From Candidatus Parcubacteria bacterium (GTDB lineage: Bacteria; Patescibacteriota; Minisyncoccia; Phycocordibacterales; UBA918): a stretch of 64,000 nt of DNA. The notes under the pieces are model-generated. The model searched no databases, had not been told where the DNA came from, and saw nothing but the letters and a program-made list of their open reading frames with translations. Below, piece by piece: positions 441 through 55,037 of this stretch; positions within the stretch are counted from its first letter, which is position 1, and every line of letters begins with the position of its first letter. The stretch spans positions 43,853 through 107,852 of the forward strand of contig JBJOPW010000002.1 of NCBI GenBank assembly GCA_046050355.1, given 5' to 3'. The position numbers and the translations under genes are program-made.

Positions 441-512
441 GCTCTCATAGTTTAATGGATAGAATGCCGGTTTGCGGTACCTGCGATCCAGGTTCGATTC
501 CTGGTGAGAGCA
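441..512 (+). tRNA. tRNA, predicted anticodon GCG (Arg-type loop TTGCGGT). Isotype uncertain.
   Basis: 72-nt cloverleaf. Acceptor stem GCTCTCA/TGAGAGC. D-arm contains GG. T-arm CCAGG-TTCGATT-CCTGG. The anticodon stem CCGGT/ACCTG has one C-U mismatch. No CCA encoded. Confidence 0.7.
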
Positions 513-521
513 CAGCAGTAT

Positions 522-587
522 AACGAAAGACCATCCATGCGCACATGGGTGGTCTTTCGTTATAGCAAGCAATTAGTATTGCTTGCG
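522..587. terminator. Two consecutive hairpins downstream of the tRNA: a 12-bp stem at 522-561 and a 9-bp stem at 566-587.
   Basis: AACGAAAGACCA...TGGTCTTTCGTT and GCAAGCAAT..ATTGCTTGC inverted repeats. Confidence 0.45.
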
Positions 588-603
588 GACTGCTGTGCTG
601 ACC

Positions 604-710
604 GGAGCGATGTTTTCTGCTTGGCTAAAGCAGAAAACCGCGAGGTGGGGTCGAGAACACTTAGTAGATTGGGAACGAAGTGAACCAATATACTTAGTGA
701 TTCGTGACCA
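604..710 (+). repeat. Copy A of a ~108-nt tRNA-associated repeat element.
   Basis: Variable 5' hairpin (GTTTTCTGCTT..AAGCAGAAAAC) followed by a conserved ~75-nt core. The core contains the hairpin AGTAGATTGG[GAACGAAGTGAA]CCAATATACT. About 90% identical to copies at 5437-5545 (minus) and 15505-15612 (plus). Confidence 0.65.
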
Positions 711-5276: not shown

Positions 5277-5420
5277 CTCTGCCCCGGCTTGGAATCGTCC
5301 TGACGGTCACCAAGCTAGATTGTTTCGCTTTTGCTCACAATCTAGCAGGTGCCGCGGGACACGGCTCGCTGGCCCTAAAGGGGACCCCAGCTCCGCCGTT
5401 CGATTCCAAGCCGTGCCTAC
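5277..5420 (-). repeat. Structured tRNA-Arg 3'-end-derived segment: inverted and direct copies of the tRNA 3' end closing a multi-hairpin region that includes a conserved-loop hairpin.
   Basis: 5277-5297 is a 21/21 direct repeat of 5631-5651 (tRNA-Arg 3' end plus 4-nt trailer). 5399-5410 is its inverted complement (12-bp closing stem). Internal hairpin CTAGATTGT[GAGCAAAAGCGAA]ACAATCTAG. Confidence 0.5.
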
Positions 5421-5436
5421 AAATGTTAAATAATTT

Positions 5437-5545
5437 GGTCACGAATCACTAAGTATATTGATTCACTCCGTTCTCAATCTACTAAATGTTCGCGACCCCG
5501 TCTCGCGGTTTTCTGCTTTGGTCAAGCAGAAAACATCGCTGCGAC
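5437..5545 (-). repeat. Copy B of the ~108-nt tRNA-associated repeat element.
   Basis: Reverse complement aligns to copy A, including the GTTTTCTGCTT..AAGCAGAAAAC hairpin and the core ending GATTCGTGACCA. Core hairpin AGTAGATTGA[GAACGGAGTGAA]TCAATATACT. Confidence 0.65.
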
Positions 5546-5587
5546 TCAGAGAGAAGTCGAAAGCAATATTAATTGCTTTCTAAACCA

Positions 5588-5626
5588 AACAAAAGCGCTC
5601 GTTTTGAGCGCTTTTGTTTGGTTTTC
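5588..5626. terminator. Strong hairpin (14-bp stem) immediately downstream of tRNA-Arg(TCT).
   Basis: AAACAAAAGCGCTC-GTTTT-GAGCGCTTTTGTTT with flanking T/A runs. Confidence 0.55.
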
Positions 5627-5633
5627 TTCTCTC

Positions 5634-5705
5634 TGCCCCGGCTTGGAATCGAACCAAGAATAACGGCTTAGAAGTCCGCAGTTATATCCATTTAACTACC
5701 GGGAC
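5634..5705 (-). tRNA. tRNA-Arg (anticodon TCT).
   Basis: Reverse complement folds as a cloverleaf. Acceptor GTCCCGG/CCGGGGC, D-stem GTTA/TAAC with GG in the loop, anticodon loop CTTCTAA, T-arm CTTGG-TTCGATT-CCAAG. No CCA encoded. Confidence 0.8.
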
Positions 5706-6537: not shown

Positions 6538-6754
6538 GGGCGGGGACTCGGTCACTCTCGTGGCTATATTAGTTCACAAGTTCATAATCTATGGACTCTT
6601 CAGGACTCGACCCAGAATCACGGTTCTTTTATTCAATACATTGAATAAAAGAAGCTCGTGTTCTTGGTCGGCGACTCCTCGTAATTTCTCTTGGTCAGAG
6701 AAATTACATCGTCCGTCGCTTCGAGTCCCTCACGGAAGCAAAACTATTTGCTTC

Positions 6755-7006
6755 CTATCGCCCACAAACAAAAAGAACCACTCCTGCGGTTCTTTTTGTT
6801 TGTGGCCATGACCGCGACAGAGATCGAACTATCACTGAGTTCCTCAAGAAGTTCGACAAGACGTCCGCCGATGCGTAAAGGCCTTGAAACTTCTGTAATG
6901 TGGCCATGATCGTGACACGGATCGAACTATCAGCGAGTTTCTGAATAAATTCGACAAGCCATCTGTCAGGGAATAAAGACCCTAAGACTTCTGTAAGGCG
7001 GCCCAC
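6755..7006 (-). pseudogene. Fused, frame-shifted tandem copies of a small-gene 3' end (shares the C-terminal peptide ...LQKxQGLYxSAxxLSNFxRNSVIVRSLSRS with 7976-8185).
   Basis: The ORF reads through two tandem ~100-bp DNA repeat units. The stop codon present in the 7976 copy (TGA) is TGG here, and unit 2 is frame-shifted. Confidence 0.3.
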
Positions 7007-7022
7007 ATCGACACATTTCTCG
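6764..7022 (+). repeat. 16-bp-stem hairpin (6764-6803) followed by two tandem ~100-bp repeat units (6803-6900, 6901-~7022). A third unit lies at 7973-8098.
   Basis: Units begin TGG(C/T)CATGA(C/T)CG(C/T)GACA..GATCGAAC and contain GTAAAG.CC.T.A.ACTTCTGTAA. Units 1 and 2 are directly adjacent with no spacer. Confidence 0.6.
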
Positions 7023-7678
7023 AACTTGGGCTCCCAACGACCTTCTAAGGTCGATCATTGAAAGGCTGGCGTCGCGTAAGTTGCCCCAGCAGGCTCGCGA
7101 CAATCATTGCGAGGCCTCCTTGCACTCATTCGATGCCGGCAACAATGGGTCGAAGAGCCTTGACATGCGGCAACGGACTGTTCCACCCTTAGACAGCACT
7201 CAATGAGAGGTTGAATCGACTCGCGCCGAAGTCCTGTTTCGGGTTCACAAAATGCTTCCAACTGTTACTGGTTCCATGCTCGGGATCGGAAGATATCTTA
7301 GTCACAGCGACAACCTAAGTACTTGATTTTATTGAGTTTTCCGCCTTTTTCCTTGCATTTGCCGCTGAGGTATGGGAAGATACTTGGGCGATAGGCTCGA
7401 GGCTGACCCGTCGCGGTGAAAGGTGCTGCAACACCAATCACATGTCCCACAAGGACGGCGCCCCAACCACAACCTGGTTGGGGCTTTCCTTTTATGTTGA
7501 CACGATGTCGTGGTCACATCCACCATGTTCCCATCAGGTTCGAGAATCGGGATGCAGCCCGCGAGCCTGACAGGGTCAGCCTCGGCCCTGCACTTTGTGG
7601 CGCGAATGCCGCTTATCGGCCCGGTGGCTGAGTTTGTACGCGCATTGGAGTGCAGGGCTTCTAGATTGGAGCCTACCC

Positions 7679-7864
7679 ATGTCGAAACATGGTATCATCG
7701 CCGATGTGCTCTTCGGAGCGATTGAAACCACCCTTGCGCCAGTCGTTGCTGTCGTCGAGGGAGTAACCGGTGAGGTCAGCAAGGAAGCCAGCGATGGTGT
7801 GCTTCGGGCAATTGTTGATCCGACCGATATCGCGATCAACGGCCTGATCAATATCACGAGGTAA
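7679..7864 (+). CDS. Small hypothetical protein (61 aa).
   Basis: ATG with GGAG 9 nt upstream. ORF is followed immediately by an 8-bp GC hairpin (CTCCGGCG..CGCCGGAG). Lies in the GC-elevated segment. Weak support. Confidence 0.25.
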   Translation: MSKHGIIADVLFGAIETTLAPVVAVVEGVTGEVSKEASDGVLRAIVDPTDIAINGLINITR

Positions 7865-7930
7865 CATCTCACTAACTCCGGCGGGATCTAGGTCTCGCCG
7901 GAGCCTAATAAATGTGTTTCTGATAGAAGA

Positions 7931-8098
7931 CAAGGGGAGTTGCGCAGTCCGCAACTCCCCTTGTCTTTACAGTGGTCATGACCGCGACAAGGATCGAACG
8001 ATCACGGAGTTCCTGAAGAAATTCGACAAGCCTCCCGCCGAAGAGTAAAGACCCTGAGACTTCTGTAAGGTGACCCAGAACGACACACTTCTCGAACC
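7931..8098 (+). repeat. Perfect 14-bp-stem hairpin (7931-7965) followed by repeat unit 3.
   Basis: CAAGGGGAGTTGCG-cagtcc-GCAACTCCCCTTG, then TGGTCATGACCGCGACAAGGATCGAAC... homologous to units at 6803-7022. Confidence 0.6.
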
Positions 8099-8185
8099 AT
8101 AAAAACGGTGCTCGAAAAATTGCAACATGTCGGTGGAAGAGACGCTAGACTTCGAAAACTCGAAAACTGAGTCTCTTGGTGGCAA
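7976..8185 (-). CDS. Small hypothetical protein (69 aa) ending in the repeated C-terminal peptide, followed by a terminator hairpin.
   Basis: Intact ORF whose last ~30 codons lie in repeat unit 3. TGA stop, then the 14-bp hairpin on the minus strand. Confidence 0.3.
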   Translation of the reverse strand: MPPRDSVFEFSKSSVSSTDMLQFFEHRFYGSRSVSFWVTLQKSQGLYSSAGGLSNFFRNSVIVRSLSRS

Positions 8186-8436
8186 TAGCAGAGACAGGGG
8201 TCAAAGCATCACGGAATTCTCGAGTAATCCACAATTCTTCTGGCTAAGAGTAAACTCTCTGAGATATCGGTACTGCGACCTTGACCGAGAAGGGTAGAAA
8301 GGAGAAAGCTATGACGTGAACTTACAGTGATCTAGACGCACAGCCCGACACGTTGGAGTTCAAATTGAAGTCAAGGTTCGGCAAGCATGCTCACAGTGAC
8401 AGTCTGTTCATTAGGGACGGAACCTGATGAACGCCA

Positions 8437-8859
8437 GTGGTGACACGCGATGTGCAAAGTGACATAGAGAGCTTCAAGTCAATTGATGACAGGGGTCAGT
8501 GGATGCTGCAACCAACATACTACGAGCACGAGTCGGGCTTGAACTGTGTTGACATAGCCAAGCGGTTGGCATTCCTTCGGGGAAACATTGTAAAGTACGT
8601 TTGGCGAGCAGGCAATAAGGGTGATTTGGTTCAAGACCTGCAGAAGGCGATTGAGTACGCGCAGATACTCATTGTTGACCCAGATCGGGTTTGCCAGGAC
8701 CAAGAGTTGGTTTCGATGATTGATTGGTATTGTAAGAATGAGTCGCACGACCTTCGTAGGACCATTATTAGAAGTGCCGCGCTGGACTCATCAGAGATCG
8801 ACTTGAAAGAAGGTGTTTTGATGAAGCTAGACCAGTGGGTTGATTCAACTCGGTCATGA
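8437..8859 (+). CDS. DUF3310-family protein (phage-associated).
   Basis: TYYEHESGLNCVDIAKRLAFLRGNIVKYVWRAGNKGDLVQDLQKAIEYAQIL matches the DUF3310 signature (..HY..G.E.ID.......FLLGNAIKYIWRAG.KG....DL.KA.WYL). GTG start. 3' end overlaps the convergent gene 8768-9454 by 92 nt, so its extent is uncertain. Confidence 0.5.
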   Translation: MVTRDVQSDIESFKSIDDRGQWMLQPTYYEHESGLNCVDIAKRLAFLRGNIVKYVWRAGNKGDLVQDLQKAIEYAQILIVDPDRVCQDQELVSMIDWYCKNESHDLRRTIIRSAALDSSEIDLKEGVLMKLDQWVDSTRS

Positions 8860-9454
8860 GTACTCGCTGCAGCAGCGTTAGTCGCGTATAATTCTTAGCA
8901 TCTTTGATGCAGGCAGGGTTGCGGATATTCAACATTAGGCAAGATCTGGTGAAGAACCATGACTTCAGATAGACTTCTCTCCCCCCAATAAACGGACAGC
9001 GAACAAGATCTACGGTACTTCTGCTAACGAGAAGGGAACGGTTGACCGAAGCTATCAGAGTGTCCATGACGGCATGATCAACAGTATTCCTGAACATCCG
9101 CGGATCGCCCCTTAGTACCTCCGAAAACAAACCTTCAGGTCCTATCTGATCGCGGAGGTCAGACTCTTCACGAAGAAGTTCATATATTTCTTTGACTAGT
9201 GCCCAATGCTTCTTGTCGCAGAGGTTGATCACGGACTCTGCTTCAATTCGTGCTTCAAGGACGACGGGAGTCAATTCAGTTCCGGCGCACTTGTTTTCCG
9301 TCCACGACAACGCATGGCGTGGGCCAGCTTCGAAGAAGTATATGCCTTCACCTAGCCAAAGGCCATCATGTTTACTCGGGTTGAATCTGTTCGATCGAGA
9401 GATTGACTCAGCAGACCCAAGGTCTGTTCCATGATACGCGATGTAGGTATACAA
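8768..9454 (-). CDS. ART-fold protein (RES-domain / PARP-like), putative NAD-utilizing toxin.
   Basis: N-terminal YHGT...NRFNPS...GEGIYFFEAGPRHALSWTE resembles the RES motif (GRFNPpG...lYlaes.etAllE) and the PARP H-G-[ST]/G.GIYF pattern. The C-terminal ~60 aa overlap the DUF3310 ORF and may be read-through. Confidence 0.45.
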   Translation of the reverse strand: MYTYIAYHGTDLGSAESISRSNRFNPSKHDGLWLGEGIYFFEAGPRHALSWTENKCAGTELTPVVLEARIEAESVINLCDKKHWALVKEIYELLREESDLRDQIGPEGLFSEVLRGDPRMFRNTVDHAVMDTLIASVNRSLLVSRSTVDLVRCPFIGGREVYLKSWFFTRSCLMLNIRNPACIKDAKNYTRLTLLQRVLMTELNQPTGLASSKHLLSSRSLMSPARHF

Positions 9455-9485
9455 AAAAATAGGCCCCCAGAGATTGTGGGGGACC

Positions 9486-10169
9486 TTAGCTTCCTACAAC
9501 GGTCTTTGCAAGACTCTCTCCCTGAACTGCATTGATGTTGTTGGGATCAGTGCAGTTGATGCGGTGAAATTCGTTCGCTGCAAAGACAATCACCGAGACA
9601 TTGGCTGAATCCGCCTCTGCCTTGACGATGCTGTAGGCCCTACGCAACTCATCGCGCGAAATCGCGTCAATGGTTAGGCCCATTCGCTTTGTCCTGTTTG
9701 ATAGAGGGGTTGCGTTGTCCCGTAGCTGATTTAAGCTAACCGGAAGAGCATCTGAGCTTGGTTTCCAAGTGCGAGATCCAAGAAGGACTTCGACACCATT
9801 ATCCCTTTGCTCTATATCTCCGCCTGTAATTATAAACTCTAAAGCAACAATTGCAATTAATATACCAACTTGAGGCAATAGAAGGAGAATTGTCAAGTAG
9901 AGCTCAGTTTCTGTCGTCTTTAGGAAGATTAGTGAGGCAGCGCTCGTTAGCAGAAGAATAAGATGGACTATTCCAAGTACAATAGATATCCCTACTCTGC
10001 GCGGAAGTATCTCCCCATGCTCATTTACTTGGGTTATCGGTTCAAAAAGGGTCCGAGCATTCAAAACTACTCGCCTCAATGTGCTTACAAACTGCCGCAA
10101 TGATGACGAACGCTTAACTAGCGCATAGAGGCCTGGTCCGACGGCGAAACTCAAAAGTGATGCTGACAT
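9486..10169 (-). CDS. Two-TM membrane protein of unknown function, directly upstream of and co-oriented with the ART-fold gene.
   Basis: Two adjacent hydrophobic helices (aa ~60-113) and a ~110-aa C-terminal soluble domain. 31-nt gap to the downstream gene. Confidence 0.45.
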   Translation of the reverse strand: MSASLLSFAVGPGLYALVKRSSSLRQFVSTLRRVVLNARTLFEPITQVNEHGEILPRRVGISIVLGIVHLILLLTSAASLIFLKTTETELYLTILLLLPQVGILIAIVALEFIITGGDIEQRDNGVEVLLGSRTWKPSSDALPVSLNQLRDNATPLSNRTKRMGLTIDAISRDELRRAYSIVKAEADSANVSVIVFAANEFHRINCTDPNNINAVQGESLAKTVVGS

Positions 10170-10273
10170 TTGGTCGAAAACTGCTTCTCGAACCGGACCA
10201 TAATCGGAAAATATCCAGTGTTAGAGCCCTATAATTGGCTTCAGATGAGGGAAAATTGTGGGGGTGTCCCCAA

Positions 10274-10349
10274 TGGTGGGCGATGAGGGACTCGAACCCC
10301 CGACCTCGATGGTGTAAACATCTTGCTCTACCAACTGAGCTAATCGCCC
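10274..10349 (-). tRNA. tRNA-Val (anticodon TAC), CCA encoded.
   Basis: Reverse complement GGGCGAT-TA-GCTC..GAGC-A-AGATG-TTTACAC-CATCG-AGGTC-GGGGG-TTCGAGT-CCCTC-ATCGCCC-A-CCA. A hairpin TGGGGGTGTCCCCA lies immediately 3'. Confidence 0.85.
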
Positions 10350-10434: not shown

Positions 10435-11100
10435 ATGAAAATACTCGAAAAGAAGAGGGCTATAGAGTTGCGTGAGCGGGGGATAGCTTTAGGTGAAATC
10501 GCTAAAAAATTAAACGTAGCAAAAGCTACAGTCAGTTATTGGGTACGGGATATTTCATTATCGAAGACACAGATCAAGCAACTCAGAGCGAATAGTCACT
10601 CAAGAGAAGCAATTGAAAAGCGACGATTGTCACGTATGACTGCAGCCGAAAAAATCCGAGATAGTATACGAGAAGAAGCTCGACAACAAGCAGTACAGTT
10701 AATCAAAAATCCATTATGGTGTGTTGCAATAGCCTTATATTGGGGGGAGGGTGGAAAGACGCAACGAACGGTTCGAATCGCAAATAGCGACCCCTCAGTT
10801 ATTAGACTACTTTGCCACTTCTTTAGAAATGAATGTCATGTGCCACTTTCTAAAATGCGAGCACATGTTCATGCGTTTTCGCACAGCGATATTGAATCAA
10901 TAGAGAAGTACTGGTCAAAAATTAGTGGCATACCCAGAAATCAATTTTTTAAGGCATATATTAAACAAAGTAGCTCTAGTAAAGAAAAAAGACAAACACT
11001 TCCAAATGGTACAATGCAAATATATGTACATGATAGTAGTTTGTTTATTAAAATTATAGCTTGGATAGAATATCTGAAAGAGATAAAACATTATGATTGA
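10435..11100 (+). CDS. HTH-domain protein with a possible LAGLIDADG-like motif (candidate free-standing homing endonuclease).
   Basis: N-terminal resolvase/sigma-70 region-4-like HTH (RGIALGEIAKKLNVAKATVSYWVRD). Central AIALYWGEGGK resembles LAGLI(E/D)GDG. AT-rich. Sits between tRNA-Val and acyP. Confidence 0.4.
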   Translation: MKILEKKRAIELRERGIALGEIAKKLNVAKATVSYWVRDISLSKTQIKQLRANSHSREAIEKRRLSRMTAAEKIRDSIREEARQQAVQLIKNPLWCVAIALYWGEGGKTQRTVRIANSDPSVIRLLCHFFRNECHVPLSKMRAHVHAFSHSDIESIEKYWSKISGIPRNQFFKAYIKQSSSSKEKRQTLPNGTMQIYVHDSSLFIKIIAWIEYLKEIKHYD

Positions 11101-15236: not shown

Positions 15237-15670
15237 CAAATAGCCGACCGAAACATGAATATGTTTCGGTCGTTGCTATTTGTAGACCAAGACTGGATTT
15301 GAAAGACAGTTTCGGGGTTCCCTTAGGGCCGAAACTGTCCGGGTCGGGCGAATGAGTTATATTGTGAGCAAAGCGAAATAATATAACCATGAGTGTGACC
15401 AAATCCAGTCTTGGGCACAAAGTCGTAAAACAAAAACAATTCTCCAAAAGAGAATTGTTTTTGTTTTAGAAAGCCAATGACTTGGCTTTCGACGACTTTG
15501 TGAAGCGGAGCGTTGTGAGTCGCCCCAGAAAGGCGACGAACCGCGAGCTGGGGTCGAGAACACTTAGTAGATTGAGAACGGAGTGAATCAATATACTTAG
15601 TGATTCGTGACCAGGACAAGCAAACAGGATTAAATAAAAAGCTTAGTAACTCATGACTTAATCCAGTCTT
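15237..15670 (+). mobile_element. Composite non-coding element(s) downstream of tRNA-Leu, bounded by direct repeats of the tRNA 3' end.
   Basis: Hairpin 15245-15276. Inverted copy of the tRNA 3' end at 15284-15302. Hairpin 15305-15338. Conserved-loop hairpin GTTATATTGT[GAGCAAAGCGAA]ATAATATAAC at 15355-15386. A 22-nt exact direct repeat of the tRNA 3' end at 15399-15420. Hairpin 15425-15468. Repeat copy C. A second partial repeat AATCCAGTCTT at 15659-15669. Confidence 0.5.
15505..15612 (+). repeat. Copy C of the ~108-nt tRNA-associated repeat element.
   Basis: Conserved core CCGCGAGCTGGGGTCGAGAACACTTAGTAGATTGAGAACGGAGTGAATCAATATACTTAGTGATTCGTGACCA. Its 5' hairpin differs from copies A and B (GTCGCC..GGCGAC). 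Confidence 0.65.
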
Positions 15671-19010: not shown

Positions 19011-19222
19011 AGGCGGCTACCGGAAGGAATTGGTCACAGGTTACTAAGCTTTTTATTTCGCTTTGCTCATAAAAATCTAAGTACCCGCGACCCCGCCTCG
19101 GCCGTTTTATTTCTAGAAAGAAATAAAACATGCCTGCGACTTTCAATTCCCGGACGCAAGTGATACTAATCACTTGCTTAGCCGCCCCAATATAAAAGAC
19201 CCCAAAAAGGGGTCCTTTATAT
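19011..19222 (-). mobile_element. Composite non-coding element downstream of tRNA-His, bounded by a direct repeat of the tRNA 3' end.
   Basis: Partial direct repeat GGCGGCTACCGG.A..GGAATTGG at 19013-19034. Conserved-loop hairpin (minus sense ATTTTTAT[GAGCAAAGCGAA]ATAAAAA) at 19049-19077. Palindromic hairpins 19106-19129 and 19157-19178. Inverted copy of the tRNA 3' end (TAGCCGCCCCAATAT) at 19179-19195. Terminator hairpin 19196-19218. Confidence 0.5.
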
Positions 19223-19298
19223 TGGGGCGGCTACCGGGAATTGAACCCGAATTGAGAGTTCCACAAACTCCAGTAATAACCATTATACCATAGCCGCC
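19223..19298 (-). tRNA. tRNA-His (anticodon GTG) with encoded G-1 and CCA.
   Basis: Reverse complement GGCGGCTA...anticodon arm GGAGT-TTGTGGA-ACTCT, T-arm TCGGG-TTCAATT-CCCGG, 3' end TAGCCGCC-C-CCA. The extra 5' G pairing with C73 is His-specific. Confidence 0.85.
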
Positions 19299-19422
19299 AG
19301 ATTGGTCACGCAAGTAGGGAGTTACTCGCGTGACCACTGTTATACCTATTTTTTCGGAAAAAGTCGAGTCCGCAACCCGCGACTAGCTATTAGATTGATA
19401 TTTTGTATACTGAAAGGTATCT

Positions 19423-27851: not shown

Positions 27852-27859
27852 CAAGAAAC

Positions 27860-28265
27860 GCGGATGGTTGCGAATTCGAGTTGTGTAATTACCATCTCGA
27901 GTTTGAGGAAAGTCCGGACACAGCGTCAATAGAAATATTGTCGAGACAGGTAGTGGGTAATACCCATCCTGAGCAATCAGCGAGGTGCGAGCAGAGACGC
28001 CCGCGGCGAAAGCCAACGGCTACCCACCAGGGTAGAGCTTGTATGGCAACATACAAGGTGAAACGGCTAAATCCTTACCCCTGTGCAAGGCCGTGCCGAG
28101 CACGTAGTCTGGATACATAATCTCTATGATTACATTTCAGACTACGTGCTTGGAGAGCTGCAAGAGGTGATCAGTAATGATCATCCCAGGTATATAACCA
28201 TCTCGAGCCAATGGCTCGAACAGAATCCGGCTTACAGCGTATCAAACACTCCCTTAGGGGAGTTT
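27860..28265 (+). ncRNA. rnpB: RNase P RNA (bacterial type).
   Basis: P4 5' strand GAGGAAAGTCCGGAC at 27905-27919 and P4 3' strand ACAGAATCCGGCTTA at 28220-28234 match the universally conserved RNase P RNA motifs. Ends with terminator hairpin CTCCCTTAGGGGAG plus T5 at 28247-28268. All six-frame ORFs inside are judged spurious. Confidence 0.8.
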
Positions 28266-30654: not shown

Positions 30655-30751
30655 AATACTATTATGACATGTTCAAAGGCGGCTGTCTTTTGGTGGTCTT
30701 TGTTGCGTAATGGTACACTTATGGTCACTAATCACTAAGAACTACAAACTT

Positions 30752-51975: not shown

Positions 51976-52063
51976 AACTGCCAAACTGGCCGGGAGTTGA
52001 TTTCACATAGTTTTGCTTTTTGTTTCTAGTATACTTTGAGGAGGTATTACATAATCATTAACT

Positions 52064-53854
52064 ATGGAACTATTAATTGTGTTGGTGGTTGGATATGTCT
52101 TTATTTTTCCAATCTACCTGTTGGTACGTCTCAATCAACTTAGTCGTGAGGTAAAAGAGTTACGCGAGGGTCGTAGTCAGGGGACACCCGCAATTAGTAA
52201 CAGTGCCACGATACCGTCGACGCCATTACCAACAACCCCGGTAGCGCCGGCATCAACAGTGACTCCAATACCGGAAGTCAGCCACCTTGCAGTCGGCTTA
52301 CGTCCACAGCCGGTCTTAGTTCCGAACGCAGTAGCCAGTACTGCCAATCACCAAGGATTTGATTTGGTTGCCTGGTTCAAGAAAGACCTATTGGTAAAGG
52401 TCGGCGCACTGCTGCTCCTTATTGGCTTTGGGTGGTTTTTGAGTTTTGCCTTCAGTAATGGACTCATTGGTCCCCGCGGACAAATATCGCTTGGTATTCT
52501 CGCGGGCATCATTTTCATGGTGGTCGGGGTATGGCGCTTATCACGTTCGGTACACCAGGCTGGTATCTTTGTGATACTGGGCTCGGGGATTGTGCTCATG
52601 ACGGTCTTTTCGGCTCGACTCATTTATGACTTCTTTACTCCAACCACGGCACTGATTACGATGTTTATGTCAATTGCGCTCGTTGCCTTTGTAGCGGTGC
52701 GAGCTAAGAGTCAAAACATCGCCATTGTTGGGTTACTCATGGGGGCGGCGGTACCATACCTGACCTATACGCCAGAGCCATCAGTGATTGGACTCTTTGC
52801 GTATCTGGCAGTGTTGGTGCTTGGTAGTCTTTGGGTGATGTTCCAGATCAAGTCCGAATGGTTGCTGTTCGTGGCGCTGTCGATTGTCTTTCTCTTTAGT
52901 GCTCCGTATATGGAGTACGGCACCGGGGATGATTCAATGATTGTACTCTTGTTTAGCTTTGGCTTTACGCTCATCTTTTTCCTTGGCAGTCTGGTGTCGT
53001 TTATCCGTCGTCAGGCCGTTGCAGCACATGGTATTCATATGATTACCGCGGCTGGTACTGGACTCTACTTGGCGACGAGTATCACTGCTATGGCGCCCGA
53101 ATCGTGGCAGGCATCACTCTACGCGATGTGGATGGTCGTATTTGCGACCGGAGCGTTCCTCGTATTTCGGTTCGCAAACGACCGTATCCCGTTTTATGTC
53201 TATAGCGCGGTGAGTATTGGTCTCTTGGGTGCTGCGACCGCTTCGTTACTTGAAGGGTATGCACTGACCATTGCCCTCACGCTCGAGATTACCGCCGTTG
53301 TATCGCTCGCAGCTCTCTTTACCAAAGAGCAGAAGATTACTCAGAGTCTCTGCTTCTTGTTTGCGCTCCCAGTACTGCTGTCGGTGGAGAGTATTACTGC
53401 TTCCAATTGGAACAGTGGCTTTCTACACTCTGACTTCTTTGTGCTGGCGTCACTTATCCTAGGGCTCGCGTTTGCAGCTTCGCTACTCAACACCCAGTAC
53501 CGTCGTGGGGTGCTGATTGATGCTTCAGCTGCGCAAGCCCTTGCTGGTTTTGCTGGCGGGTACGGGGTCATCTTGGTGTGGCTTATTACTCATAGTGTCT
53601 TGACTGATGACACGGCCACCCTTGTGTCGTTAGTGTTGTATACGCTTACCGGTATGGCGCTCTACATCCGCGGCGTCACCATAGCGAGCAGTCAGCTCAA
53701 AGTCTGGGGTGGGATACTCATTGGTTTGGTCGTCGGCCGACTTCTCCTTATCGATGTGTGGGACATGGATATCGTTGGTCGTATCATCACGTTCTTCGTG
53801 ATTGGCTTACTCCTCATCTCAACGGCGTTTATCCGAAAGTTTAATCAATCATAA
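52064..53854 (+). CDS. Large polytopic membrane protein (DUF2339-like architecture).
   Basis: N-terminal helix plus charged linker, a Pro/Thr-rich segment, then about 14 TM helices. Confidence 0.55.
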   Translation: MELLIVLVVGYVFIFPIYLLVRLNQLSREVKELREGRSQGTPAISNSATIPSTPLPTTPVAPASTVTPIPEVSHLAVGLRPQPVLVPNAVASTANHQGFDLVAWFKKDLLVKVGALLLLIGFGWFLSFAFSNGLIGPRGQISLGILAGIIFMVVGVWRLSRSVHQAGIFVILGSGIVLMTVFSARLIYDFFTPTTALITMFMSIALVAFVAVRAKSQNIAIVGLLMGAAVPYLTYTPEPSVIGLFAYLAVLVLGSLWVMFQIKSEWLLFVALSIVFLFSAPYMEYGTGDDSMIVLLFSFGFTLIFFLGSLVSFIRRQAVAAHGIHMITAAGTGLYLATSITAMAPESWQASLYAMWMVVFATGAFLVFRFANDRIPFYVYSAVSIGLLGAATASLLEGYALTIALTLEITAVVSLAALFTKEQKITQSLCFLFALPVLLSVESITASNWNSGFLHSDFFVLASLILGLAFAASLLNTQYRRGVLIDASAAQALAGFAGGYGVILVWLITHSVLTDDTATLVSLVLYTLTGMALYIRGVTIASSQLKVWGGILIGLVVGRLLLIDVWDMDIVGRIITFFVIGLLLISTAFIRKFNQS

Positions 53855-53861
53855 ATCACGT

Positions 53862-55037
53862 ATGTTTCGTCCTATTGTAATTCTCGTACTCACGCTCCTC
53901 ATTATCGTAGCGCCTGTCTACGCTGCACCGCGTGAAGATGCCACTGCCTTTCGTACCATCTTTGCGCTTGCGCCATTAACGATCACCTTGCCGTCAGTGG
54001 TTGAGGTCGATCTCAGTCAATACTCGTTTTCTAGTGCTGAGTTTATGGTCTATGAGGTGGGATCAAATGCGTGGGTCACGCCAACATATCGCAATCAATC
54101 TGAAACACTTCGAAACAAACCGGTGGTTACTGATTCAGATACTGGTAATAGAATCCCGGCATTAACAGACAAAAACCAAGCCACCCCCTACACCTTTCAA
54201 GTAGCCGGCAATCAGATTAGCACGGTAACGTTGAATTTCACGTACTCGAAGCCGATTACTGCCGGACAGCTGGTCCTAGATCTAAGTCAAAACGTCCAGT
54301 TGCCGCGTACGGTGATGATCAGTGTGGGGGACGGGGACAATGAGCAAGTAGCGCTCGCTACTACAGCTGTCACCGGTAGAACTATAGTTTTCCCAAAACT
54401 CACGGGGACAGTGTGGAAAGTAACTTTTACCCATAATCAACCACTCCGTATCAGCGAACTCACGTTTGTGGATGAAGCGGCGCCACAGCAGATCACCAAG
54501 TCACTGCGCTTCCTGGCACAACCTGGTCAGTCGTATGTAGTGTATGCCAATCCCGACCGTCCAAACACCGTGCAAGGGCGGGAGAGTGGCAATGTGTGGG
54601 GCAACACCGTCGTGCCAGTGCCAGTTCAAGTATTGTCGAGCAAGGACAATCCCTATTACGTACAGAAAGATTCTGATAAGGACACCGTTCCCGACGAAGC
54701 TGACAATTGTCCCTTTATCGCCAACCTTGACCAAATCGACGTGAATGCTAACAAGCAGGGTGATGCCTGTGAGGACTTTGACCAAGACGGTGCCATGAAC
54801 AATACCGATAACTGTCCTGATTTACCAAACCGCTACCAAGCAGACAAAGATAGTGATGGTATTGGTGACGAGTGTGATGACGATGAGAGTCGCCTTACCG
54901 AGAAGTATGCTTGGCTACCGTGGGTAGCTCTTGGTGCGGCACTCCTCACTATCGTTGGCATGTTTGTGGTTGTCTCCAGGCGTCCGCTTCCAAGTGAACA
55001 AACGGCAGTCAGTGATAATACCACCACCATGCTGTAA
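53862..55037 (+). CDS. Secreted, C-terminally anchored protein with thrombospondin type-3-like calcium-binding repeats.
   Basis: Signal peptide. Repeated D.D.D..PD..DNCP...N.DQ.D.D.DG.GD.CD motifs. C-terminal TM. Confidence 0.55.
   Translation: MFRPIVILVLTLLIIVAPVYAAPREDATAFRTIFALAPLTITLPSVVEVDLSQYSFSSAEFMVYEVGSNAWVTPTYRNQSETLRNKPVVTDSDTGNRIPALTDKNQATPYTFQVAGNQISTVTLNFTYSKPITAGQLVLDLSQNVQLPRTVMISVGDGDNEQVALATTAVTGRTIVFPKLTGTVWKVTFTHNQPLRISELTFVDEAAPQQITKSLRFLAQPGQSYVVYANPDRPNTVQGRESGNVWGNTVVPVPVQVLSSKDNPYYVQKDSDKDTVPDEADNCPFIANLDQIDVNANKQGDACEDFDQDGAMNNTDNCPDLPNRYQADKDSDGIGDECDDDESRLTEKYAWLPWVALGAALLTIVGMFVVVSRRPLPSEQTAVSDNTTTML

What the first reader, a model, noticed from the sequence alone, without database searches (positions are those of the whole stretch)
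19011..19222. tRNA-His trailer is predicted to fold back onto the tRNA acceptor end
The 17 nt immediately following the His terminator hairpin (19179-19195, TTAGCCGCCCCAATAT on the plus strand) are the exact complement of the tRNA-His 3' acceptor/CCA region lying 30 nt away. The trailer transcript could therefore sequester the mature 3' end. The same inverted-copy arrangement occurs at the Leu locus (15284-15302) and the Arg locus (5399-5410). A further fragment complementary to the His T-arm is at 19140-19152, and a partial direct repeat of the tRNA 3' end is at 19013-19034.
Basis: seen in the sequence. Interest (0 to 1): 0.6.

Follow-up and report, generated by a model that had tools for sequence, protein, structure and literature searches.

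The report
Structured mini-element inserted in tRNA-His
The sequence after tRNA-His that can fold back onto the tRNA's end is real, but it is the left arm of a ~215-base non-coding, highly structured insertion that sits in the tRNA gene's T-loop. It belongs to an apparently undescribed family that has colonised tRNA, tmRNA and even ftsZ gene ends across the Candidate Phyla Radiation (CPR) bacteria.

Summary
tRNA-His lies on the minus strand (19223-19297). Its last 11 nt, a terminator hairpin and an exact complement form a 25-nt-arm inverted repeat. A 12-nt complement of the T-arm and a decayed direct repeat of the tRNA 3' end follow.

These are not a tRNA-specific regulatory trailer. They are parts of one insertion. 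It has a replacement tRNA 3' piece, a terminator, a small hairpin and a 10-25 nt segment complementary to the tRNA across the insertion point. It ends in a conserved 104-nt scaffold that stops exactly at the displaced original tRNA 3' piece.

The same scaffold follows four of the five tRNAs in the window. A covariance model found 149 copies in CPR genomes, 125 just downstream of a same-strand tRNA or tmRNA. Covariation is strong, and G-U pairs far outnumber A-C pairs, which places the structure on the tRNA-sense strand.

Close relatives lack the insertion at tRNA-His. Nested and tandem copies exist, and some copies sit at ftsZ 3' ends. It is therefore a mobile, non-autonomous element.

No element-encoded or linked enzyme, Rfam family or publication was found. 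The mechanism is inferred, not shown.

The parts
19223..19297 (-). tRNA-His(GTG) gene. G-1 is at 19298 and CCA is encoded. Its 3' part from C56 (19223-19243) is the element-borne replacement piece, 'F'.
   Evidence: ARAGORN; Rfam tRNA 56.6 bits; the direct-repeat boundary at C56 is seen across the family.
19190..19222 (-). Trailer plus terminator hairpin: GACCCC-TTTTT-GGGGTC (core 19198-19214) with an A-rich 5' flank and a T-rich 3' flank. It forms the tip of hairpin H1.
   Evidence: terminator-like scan.
19179..19189 (-). Exact complement of the tRNA-His acceptor 3' strand + C73 + CCA (outer part of the H1 3' arm).
   Evidence: Inverted repeat I1, 25-nt arms, 96%.
19156..19177 (-). P3, a small conserved hairpin (GCAAGTGAT-TAGT-ATCACTTGC). 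It interrupts the antisense copy exactly between the acceptor and T-stem parts.
   Evidence: The same GMAAG...CTTKC hairpin, with compensatory stem changes, occurs in other copies.
19142..19153 (-). G1, a 12-nt complement of T54-G65 (T-loop + T-stem 3' strand). It spans the left insertion junction and directly precedes the scaffold.
   Evidence: I5, 12/12. The family-wide match to the cognate tRNA is 10.6/12, against 7.9/12 for other tRNAs.
19032..19142 (-). Conserved scaffold. H2 comprises helices Pa and Pb, a GSA/GA internal loop and hairpin P4. H3 is a long hairpin GGTC-GA-GAAC-ACTTAG..P5..CTTAG-..-GTGACC. It ends at the right junction, where GTGACC reads ggtcac at 19032-19037 on the + strand.
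   Evidence: CM R1 hit, 95.2 bits; covariation.
19012..19031 (-). F', the displaced and now decayed original tRNA-His 3' part (AATTCCTTCCGGTAGCCGCC). It is the direct repeat.
   Evidence: D1, 12/12; intact counterparts in other loci.
509..709 (+). X element after tRNA-Arg(GCG), type B. P1 5' strand 509-518, terminator 519-564, P3 565-586, G1 590-599, scaffold 599-709.
   Evidence: CM 109.3 bits.
5437..5635 (-). X element after tRNA-Arg(TCT), type B. G1 5547-5556, P3 5559-5580, scaffold 5437-5547.
   Evidence: CM 105.3 bits.
5277..5417 (-). Y-subfamily element at tRNA-Arg(TCT). Antisense copy of the T-arm/acceptor 5398-5417, scaffold 5297-5399, displaced tRNA 3' repeat 5277-5297.
   Evidence: CM 37.9 bits.
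15238..15422 (+). Y-type element in tRNA-Leu. Terminator, antisense copy 15283-15303, scaffold 15303-15400, displaced tRNA 3' repeat 15400-15422.
   Evidence: CM 20 bits; a near-identical copy in L004.
15416..15612 (+). X element (type B) following the Leu repeat. P3 15469-15490, G1 15492-15502, scaffold 15502-15612.
   Evidence: CM 100.3 bits.
6540..6850 (-). Relic X-type element whose antisense segments match tRNA-Val (6757-6765 and 6720-6731). It has two right-end remnants, each followed by GAGTCC. It now lies 3.4 kb from tRNA-Val.
   Evidence: CM 21.8 bits at 6609-6719.

Best explanation
The fold-back is the left-end hairpin of a ~215-nt non-coding mobile insertion ('X element') in the T-loop of the tRNA-His gene.

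**Shown: layout in the tRNA sense**
1. A replacement copy of the tRNA from C56 to CCA.
2. A new trailer and an intrinsic terminator.
3. A complement of that same tRNA piece. It extends 2-5 nt past the insertion point and is interrupted by a small hairpin, P3.
4. A conserved 104-nt scaffold of covarying helices that ends (…GTGACC) exactly where the displaced original tRNA 3' piece begins.

**Shown: consequences and behaviour**
- Because the element supplies the tRNA 3' part and a terminator, the host tRNA gene stays intact. Its transcript should normally stop before the antisense segment.
- The family inserts at T-loop position 55/56-57 (type A, as here) or at the very 3' end of the tRNA (type B).
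- It targets tRNAs of nearly all identities, tmRNA genes and an ftsZ 3' end.
- It is gained and lost between close relatives.
- It encodes no protein.

**Inferred**
- The element moves through a single-stranded form of the tRNA-sense strand: a read-through RNA or ssDNA.
- The scaffold is the handle for a trans-acting enzyme.
- The target-complementary segment is the specificity determinant. It pairs with the intact target across the insertion point. In the integrated state it simply pairs with the element-borne tRNA copy.
- It is a selfish element, not a regulator of tRNA-His maturation.
For: **Insertion and mobility**
- tRNA-His has no such sequence in L004, and has Y + X copies and an intact direct repeat in L001. 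tRNA-Leu and tRNA-Arg(TCT) differ likewise.
- The direct repeat runs from C56 to the tRNA end in dozens of loci, and the trailers beyond it are unrelated.
- There are tandem remnants (L002), nested insertions, tmRNA targets, and ftsZ targets that carry a copy of the coding 3' end.
- The window holds a relic copy matched to tRNA-Val.

**Family size and context**
- The exact 18-mer of the right end occurs in more than 117 stretches of GTDB genomes. All are CPR lineages except two contigs from MAGs with non-CPR labels.
- CM R1 finds 149 copies. 125 of them have a same-strand tRNA or tmRNA within 700 nt upstream (median gap 86 nt).

**Structure**
- 95.6% of cells are paired, against 75.4% in shuffles.
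- 22 of 23 pairs show double changes.
- The covariation score is 0.503 against 0.158 (0 of 500 shuffles reach it); slid controls give about 0.05.
- G-U/U-G pairs number 202 against 32 A-C/C-A, which puts the structure on the tRNA-sense strand.

**Target matching**
- Complementarity to the tRNA 3' region has a median of 29 matched nt.
- It starts either at T54 or about 5 nt before the tRNA end.
- The segment next to the scaffold matches its own tRNA 10.6/12, against 7.9/12 for other tRNAs.

**No cis protein**
- No recurrent neighbouring ORF was found.
- The scaffold is never split by a long insert.
Against: - No enzyme has been identified, and no autonomous copy was found in about 850 kb of flanks.
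- An intrinsic terminator upstream of the scaffold argues against abundant scaffold RNA. No promoter is evident.
- ssDNA transposons of the IS200/IS605 type show replication-strand bias. None is seen here: 55 of 119 copies lie on the G-rich strand.
- It is unexplained how the carried tRNA piece and its complement are both re-specified when the element moves to a new tRNA.
- In the left hairpin, G-T and A-C mismatches are nearly balanced (37 vs 25). That stem gives no clear sign of RNA-level selection.
- All genomes are MAGs, and no expression data were available.
Confidence: 0.6

Rival explanations
1. One reading: the trailer is a cis-acting RNA device of the tRNA gene. When transcribed, it pairs with the acceptor/CCA end and T-arm to control 3' maturation, stability or quality control of tRNA-His and other tRNAs.
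For: - A read-through RNA folds so that the trailer captures the tRNA 3' half.
- The structure is on the tRNA-sense strand.
- The pairing around the tRNA 3' end is kept by a compensatory change between the window and L110 Arg(GCG) copies.
- Four of the five tRNAs in the window carry it.
Against: - A terminator precedes the complementary segment.
- Close relatives have the same tRNAs without it.
- Displaced direct repeats, tandem remnants, nested copies and copies at ftsZ 3' ends are not expected of a maturation signal.
- tRNA-Val in the window has no adjacent copy; only a relic matched to tRNA-Val lies 3.4 kb downstream.
Confidence: 0.1
2. The element is a folded single-stranded DNA recombination or transposition substrate. 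Hairpin H1 rebuilds a duplex copy of the target (as in integron attC or CTX-phage attP(+)) or presents cleavage sites at hairpin bases (as in IS200/IS605 ends and REP elements). A host- or mobile-element-encoded tyrosine recombinase or HUH nuclease moves it in trans.
For: - Strand-specific hairpins with G-T pairs.
- Both junctions lie at the base of long hairpins.
- The complementary segment pairs with 2-5 nt of the left flank, like the guide/cleavage-site pairing of IS608 (established knowledge).
- No ORF lies inside the element.
- A terminator in front of the scaffold does no harm to a DNA-level element.
Against: - No replication-strand bias.
- No Y1/HUH or integrase gene was seen near any copy or among the window ORFs scanned.
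- The 104-nt multi-helix scaffold with conserved internal loops and a conserved G-U is more elaborate than known ssDNA transposon ends.
Confidence: 0.22
3. The elements are left-over attachment-site arms of ordinary tRNA-targeting integrative elements or prophages (attL/attR fused after internal deletion, or attP-only mini-circles). They would be moved by a classical integrase acting on double-stranded DNA.
For: - T-loop sublocation, restoration of the tRNA 3' end and direct repeats are classic for integrase-mediated insertion into tRNA and tmRNA genes (established knowledge).
- A 3.4-kb insert with a DUF3310 gene sits at tRNA-Val in the window.
Against: - Double-stranded att sites do not need strand-specific covarying helices.
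- The same scaffold serves about 17 tRNA identities, with target-matched variable parts.
- The unit is a uniform ~150-215 nt, and none of the 149 copies has an integrase nearby.
- There were no hits in IMG/VR viral contigs.
Confidence: 0.06
4. The scaffold plus the displaced tRNA 3' piece forms a tRNA-like RNA. The antisense acceptor and T segments pair with the downstream repeat to give an acceptor/T minihelix, with P3 in place of the D and anticodon arms. RNase P, RNase Z or the CCA-adding enzyme could then process or tag it. It might also serve as a reverse-transcription template, like a SINE.
For: - In type A copies, P3 sits exactly at the acceptor/T-stem junction of the antisense copy.
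- The downstream repeat is often perfectly conserved while the adjacent old trailer is unrelated.
- The structure is on the sense strand.
Against: - About one third of copies (type B) have no T-arm complement and no long downstream repeat, yet keep an intact scaffold.
- No reverse transcriptase was found nearby.
- The alternative fold competes with the much closer upstream partner.
Confidence: 0.07

Closest known systems
tRNA/tmRNA-targeting integrative elements (tyrosine-integrase islands and prophages, T-loop sublocation; tycheposons as a small-genome example)
   Same: Inserts in the 3' part of tRNA and tmRNA genes. Carries a replacement 3' segment so the gene stays intact. Leaves the displaced segment as a direct repeat. 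Accumulates in tandem.
   Different: Only 100-215 nt long with no integrase or other gene. One scaffold serves many tRNA identities. Contains an inverted copy of the target. Has strand-specific covarying structure.
IS200/IS605-derived PATEs and REP/BIME elements mobilised by HUH (Y1) transposases/RAYTs
   Same: Small, non-coding, strand-specific hairpin elements moved in trans. Cleavage sites are defined by base pairing with nucleotides next to a hairpin. Often lie downstream of genes.
   Different: No HUH gene was found and there is no replication-strand bias. The pairing is much longer (10-25 nt). The element carries a copy of the target. The scaffold has several helices.
Integron attC sites / CTX-phage attP(+) (folded ssDNA recombination sites)
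   Same: A direct and an inverted copy fold into a hairpin that mimics the duplex target. Structure rather than sequence is conserved in part of it. Only one strand is the active one.
   Different: The target is a tRNA T-loop, not attI or dif. No IntI or Xer link was shown. An additional conserved 104-nt scaffold is present.
Transposon-encoded guide RNAs (TnpB/IscB omega RNA, IS110 bridge RNA, group II intron EBS-IBS pairing)
   Same: A conserved structured non-coding scaffold abuts the element end. Next to it lie variable segments that match the target, one complementary to the sense strand across the insertion point. The flank that follows the scaffold is identical to the target.
   Different: No nuclease, recombinase or RT gene lies in cis or nearby. 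There is no Rfam match. A terminator sits upstream of the scaffold. The guide is paired in cis with an element-borne target copy.
R2 retrotransposon 5' ribozyme / tRNA 3' external transcribed spacer RNAs
   Same: The element or trailer is co-transcribed with a host structural RNA gene and pairs with host sequence at the junction.
   Different: No ribozyme core motifs were recognised. No RT was found. Function as a trailer RNA is untested.

Membership tests
tRNA-targeting integrase-type integrative element | Insertion in the 3' part of a tRNA/tmRNA gene, with restoration of the gene and a direct repeat of the displaced part | tested here: met
   Direct repeat from C56 to the tRNA end in dozens of loci. 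In the window: 19012-19031 vs 19223-19243.
tRNA-targeting integrase-type integrative element | Element encodes, or lies next to, a tyrosine or serine integrase | tested here: not met
   No ORF lies inside any copy. No recurrent neighbouring protein in 117 loci. Window ORFs scanned show none.
IS200/IS605 PATE / REP-RAYT | Subterminal strand-specific hairpins at both ends | tested here: met
   H1 and H3 hairpins reach both junctions. G-U 202 vs A-C 32.
IS200/IS605 PATE / REP-RAYT | Partner Y1 HUH transposase in the genome | not testable with these tools
   Whole genomes could not be retrieved. None was seen in the 64-kb window ORFs scanned or in the 8-kb flanks.
IS200/IS605 PATE / REP-RAYT | Orientation bias relative to replication (lagging-strand template) | tested here: not met
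   55 of 119 copies lie on the G-rich strand. The proxy, local GC skew, is noisy.
Integron attC / CTX attP(+) | A hairpin of direct + inverted copy reconstitutes a duplex recombination site | tested here: met
   25-nt arms in the window. Median of 29 matched nt across 90 copies.
Integron attC / CTX attP(+) | Cognate recombinase (IntI or XerCD) and its core sequence (GTTRRRY or dif) | tested here: not met
   The junction sequences (…GGTTC|GAATCC…, …GTGACC|) do not fit GTTRRRY or dif on direct reading. No integron integrase was seen.
Transposon guide RNA (omega RNA / bridge RNA) | Conserved covarying RNA scaffold at the element end, adjacent to target-matched sequence | tested here: met
Transposon guide RNA (omega RNA / bridge RNA) | Associated TnpB/IscB/IS110 protein; match to known RNA families | tested here: not met
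   No Rfam hit at gathering score or at E<=10. No such ORF lies next to any copy.
Transposon guide RNA (omega RNA / bridge RNA) | The scaffold is expressed as RNA | not testable with these tools
   No transcriptome data. A terminator lies upstream of the scaffold.
Self-cleaving ribozymes (hammerhead, HDV-like, twister and others) | Match to family covariance models / conserved catalytic core | tested here: not met
   No Rfam match. The three-way-junction strands are only 0-3 nt long with no conserved core (reading).

The most novel reading that the evidence does not exclude
The X/Y/Z/W elements are a protein-less, programmable homing system.

- A conserved RNA (or ssDNA) scaffold recruits a trans-encoded enzyme of CPR bacteria that is still unknown.
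- Two target-matched segments direct insertion into the T-loop of the cognate tRNA gene. One is the complement spanning the insertion point. The other is the tRNA-identical flank after the scaffold.
- The element brings its own copy of the displaced gene end.

This would be a new class of nucleic-acid-guided DNA insertion whose specificity is rewritten for about 20 different targets.

One candidate partner deserves testing. It is the ~220-aa protein with an HTH and an uncharacterised domain that abuts the 5' side of tRNA genes (window 10435-11100).
Probability: 0.3. Interest if true: 0.9.

Novelty: new variant of a known kind. Interest (0 to 1): 0.75.

Why it matters
- CPR bacteria have tiny genomes with single-copy tRNA genes. 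Yet a large share of those genes (four of five in this window) carry a selfish, highly structured insertion that manages not to break them.
- The family combines traits that are otherwise split between integrase islands (gene-end replacement), ssDNA hairpin elements and guide-RNA transposons.
- It re-targets one scaffold to about 17 tRNA identities, tmRNA and a protein-coding gene end. Working out its enzyme could reveal a compact, naturally programmable insertion mechanism.
- In practice, annotation pipelines should recognise these elements. They create pseudo-tRNA fragments, long hairpins and assembly breaks next to tRNA genes in CPR MAGs.

Tried and rejected
- **Rfam.** The whole window at gathering score, and two element regions at E<=10, gave only tRNA, RNase P and spurious miRNA-like hairpin hits.
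- **IMG/VR.** A scan with the 18-mer gave no hits, so there is no sign of a phage vector.
- **Autonomous copy.** No scaffold is split by a long insert. The 24 copies without an upstream tRNA are mostly contig edges, ftsZ targets or degenerate tRNAs.
- **Neighbouring ORFs.** All-against-all clustering of 779 ORFs in 117 loci gave a largest cluster of 13 loci. By reading their sequences, the top clusters look like housekeeping genes (PilM/N, Hsp20, RluA, FtsZ, L19).
- **Window ORFs.** Pfam and NCBIfam scans found no integrase, transposase or RT.
- **HTH protein next to tRNA-Val.**
  - A LAGLIDADG-like sequence motif suggested a homing endonuclease.
  - The AlphaFold model (pLDDT 88) has an alternating alpha/beta C-terminal domain. 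It gave no significant Foldseek hit in PDB or BFVD.
  - An HVH motif is confined to one subfamily.
  - The link to the element is left open.
- **Replication-strand bias.** None was found.
- **Ribozyme cores.** I looked for hammerhead and HDV-like cores at the three-way junction and rejected both on inspection.
- **Literature.** Five full-text searches on CPR, tRNA, mobile elements, structured RNA and T-loop insertion found no description.

Full report
**1. The observation**

The window is a bacterial chromosome segment. It carries RNase P RNA at 27852-28250 and five dispersed tRNA genes. tRNA-His(GTG) lies on the minus strand at 19223-19297 with CCA encoded, so its downstream region is at lower coordinates.

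- The repeat finder reports a 25-nt-arm inverted repeat, 96% complementary with a 5-nt loop: 19179-19203 against 19209-19233. The arm nearer the tRNA contains the last 11 nt of the tRNA.
- There is an exact 12-nt complement of the T-loop/T-stem: 19142-19153 against 19234-19245.
- There is an exact 12-nt direct repeat of the tRNA 3' end: 19012-19023 equals 19226-19237.
- Folded as one RNA, tRNA-His plus 190 nt downstream reaches -136.3 kcal/mol (z = -12.6). The tRNA's T-arm and acceptor 3' strand are taken up by the downstream complement.

**2. What surrounds it**

I wrote out the regions after all five tRNAs in the tRNA sense. The His features turned out to be parts of a repeated, modular unit. 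Its order is:

1. The tRNA 3' part.
2. A trailer and a terminator hairpin.
3. An antisense copy of the tRNA end.
4. A small hairpin, P3.
5. A 10-12 nt antisense segment, G1.
6. A conserved ~104-nt block that ends in …ACTTAGTGATTCGTGACC.
7. In the His case, a decayed second copy of the tRNA 3' part.

The conserved block follows tRNA-Arg(GCG), tRNA-Arg(TCT), tRNA-Leu and tRNA-His. A related 'Y' version also sits at Arg(TCT) and Leu. A third version sits after Arg(GCG). A relic whose antisense segments match tRNA-Val lies at 6540-6850.

**3. It is an insertion**

Homologues of the neighbouring phosphomannomutase place the organism in the CPR/Patescibacteria (Parcubacteria). An identical protein is on record from a Candidatus Parcubacteria MAG.

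Syntenic contigs from relatives show presence/absence:

| Locus (phosphomannomutase identity to window) | tRNA-His | tRNA-Leu | tRNA-Arg(TCT) |
|---|---|---|---|
| L004 (76%) | tRNA and a plain terminator only | Y element, nearly identical to the window's | Terminator only |
| L001 (95%) | Y copy, X copy, then an intact repeat of the tRNA 3' end and the old terminator | Only a right-end remnant | Not in the locus |
| L002 (79%) | Not in the locus | An X copy followed by several truncated right ends, each joined to AAATCCA (the Leu T-loop) | Not in the locus |

**4. A large family**

The lineages are Saccharibacteria, Paceibacteria, Kaiserbacteria, Nomurabacteria, Campbellbacteria, Lloydbacteria, Yonathbacteria and others. 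Two contigs come from MAGs with non-CPR labels.
- It does not occur in IMG/VR viral contigs.
- In 80 of 126 extracted copies a same-strand tRNA lies upstream. About 17 tRNA identities are represented.
- A covariance model built from 24 copies finds 149 copies in 850 kb of these loci. Of those, 125 have a same-strand tRNA or tmRNA within 700 nt upstream, with a median gap of 86 nt.
- Other copies sit at tmRNA genes. Others sit at the 3' end of an ftsZ-like ORF (…DDWGAVPAFLRRSKLK*), where the element carries a copy of the coding end and its complement.
- One subfamily has inserted into the GGGGT|CGAGAAC site of X itself.

**5. Anatomy and statistics**

*Direct repeat.* In 'type A' copies such as His, the repeat runs from C56 of the T-loop to the tRNA end. 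The trailers beyond it are unrelated, so the element brings its own trailer and terminator. Two loci have longer repeats and look young: L014 with 50 nt and L056 with 28 nt.

*Complementarity to the tRNA 3' region.* The median is 29 matched nt. It starts either at T54 (type A, about 60 copies) or about 5 nt before the tRNA end (type B, about 27 copies). In both types it extends 2-5 nt to the left of the junction. It therefore matches the intact target or the rebuilt left junction. The segment next to the scaffold matches its own tRNA 10.6/12, against 7.9/12 for tRNAs of other identity.

*Scaffold covariation*:

| Measure | Observed | Control |
|---|---|---|
| Cells paired | 95.6% | 75.4% (shuffled) |
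| Pairs with changes on both sides | 22 of 23 | 14.8 of 23 (shuffled mean) |
| Covariation score | 0.503 | 0.158 (shuffled; 0 of 500 shuffles reach it) |
| Covariation score, slid register | – | about 0.05 |

*Strand.* G-U/U-G pairs outnumber A-C/C-A pairs 202 to 32, or 75 to 28 without one conserved G-U pair. The structure therefore forms on the tRNA-sense strand, as RNA or as ssDNA.

*Negative results.*
- No Rfam family matches.
- No protein is encoded inside any copy or recurrently beside one.
- There is no bias with respect to the GC-skew-inferred replication strand: 55 of 119 copies lie on the G-rich strand.

**6. Interpretation**

*Shown.* The His 'trailer' is a mobile, non-autonomous, structured insertion. 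It replaces the tRNA 3' end with its own copy and supplies a terminator.

*Inferred.*
- The scaffold is the handle for a trans-acting enzyme.
- G1 and the antisense copy are the specificity determinant.
- The mobile form is single-stranded.

I favour an RNA-level scaffold slightly over an ssDNA substrate, for three reasons: the scaffold is complex, it has a conserved G-U pair, and there is no replication-strand bias. Against that, the upstream terminator and the lack of a visible promoter favour a DNA-level element. I therefore leave this open (best explanation and rival 2).

A terminator also lies before the antisense segment.

Classical integrase att remnants do not explain strand-specific covariation, nor one scaffold serving many tRNAs.

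It remains unexplained how the carried piece and its complement are both rewritten for a new target.

**7. A lead on the enzyme (unproven)**

- Window ORF 10435-11100 encodes a 221-aa protein with an N-terminal HTH. It starts 86 nt upstream of tRNA-Val, on the opposite strand, and is absent at that spot in L001 and L004.
- It has 476 homologues of about 220 aa. Many lie on short contigs, and JGI calls some of them 'transposase-like'.
- Its orthologues keep the same divergent position next to tRNA-Val.
- Paralogues end 3-50 nt before tRNA-Gly or tRNA-Met genes in 7 of the X-bearing loci.
- A LAGLIDADG-like sequence motif is present. However, the AlphaFold model (pLDDT 88) has an alternating alpha/beta C-terminal domain with no significant PDB or BFVD match.
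- An unrelated LAGLIDADG_3 protein ends 1 nt before tRNA-Leu in L001.

Whether any of these proteins moves the elements is unknown.

**8. Novelty**

Five full-text searches found no description of the element. It shares single features with integrase islands, PATE/REP elements, attC/CTX sites and transposon guide RNAs. For each of these families at least one defining feature was tested and not met, or could not be tested (see the membership table).

I rate it a new variant of a known kind: a site-specific, non-autonomous mobile element. There is a real chance, about 0.3, that the mechanism is new.

Noticed in passing
window 6850-10270: A ~3.4-kb segment lies between tRNA-Val (10274-10349) and the relic tRNA-Val-matched element (6540-6850). 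Relatives L001 and L004 have no comparable segment downstream of tRNA-Val. It holds a DUF3310 protein (8437-8859) and ORFs of 227 and 228 aa with no family hit. It looks like a small island inserted at the tRNA-Val 3' end.
   Followed up: partly
window 10435-11100 (+); L007, L018, L028, L030, L059, L099, L106, L113, L123-L127: A family of ~220-aa proteins abuts the 5' side of tRNA genes. They have an N-terminal HTH and an uncharacterised alpha/beta domain with a LAGLIDADG-like sequence motif. The genes are divergent from tRNA-Val, or end 3-50 nt before tRNA-Gly or tRNA-Met. There are 476 homologues, many on short contigs. The fold is unclassified.
   Followed up: partly
L001 8128-8799: A LAGLIDADG_3-domain protein (E 9e-13) ends 1 nt before tRNA-Leu. 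A similar gene follows ribosomal protein L19 in L123. It is a second endonuclease-like family next to tRNA genes.
   Followed up: no
L041, L055, L065, L073, L075: X elements are inserted in the last ~35 nt of an ftsZ-like ORF. Each carries a replacement copy of the C-terminal coding sequence (…VPAFLRRSKLK*) and its complement. The family is therefore not restricted to RNA genes.
   Followed up: partly
window 19303-19336: A 14-bp hairpin ending in GTGACCA lies 5 nt upstream of the tRNA-His 5' end. The hairpin is kept in L001 and L004 (ending CGACCAAT there). Its 3' end resembles the right end of the X element.
   Followed up: no
window 6850-8190: A ~100-nt unit is repeated three times. On the + strand it shows a codon-like substitution pattern for a short peptide ending …RDRTITEFLKKFDK…. 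It may be a small repeated gene within the island.
   Followed up: no
window 27852-28250: RNase P RNA (bacterial class A) scores only 109 bits against a gathering score of 100. This CPR lineage has a divergent RNase P RNA.
   Followed up: no
window 19030-19298 (fold): In the minimum-energy fold of the read-through RNA, the freed tRNA-His 5' acceptor strand (GCGGCU) pairs with AGUCGC immediately after G1. It could be chance or an alternative to helix Pa.
   Followed up: no
window 52001-54000: AT skew drops to -0.253 here only. The region overlaps ORF 52064-53854 (not scanned) and the start of ORF 53802-55037, which has thrombospondin type 3 repeats.
   Followed up: no
window 30722-30740: A 17/19 match to the X right-end motif (TCTTAGTGATTAGTGACCA) lies just upstream of an ORF start, with no scaffold around it. 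It could be a remnant or chance.
   Followed up: no
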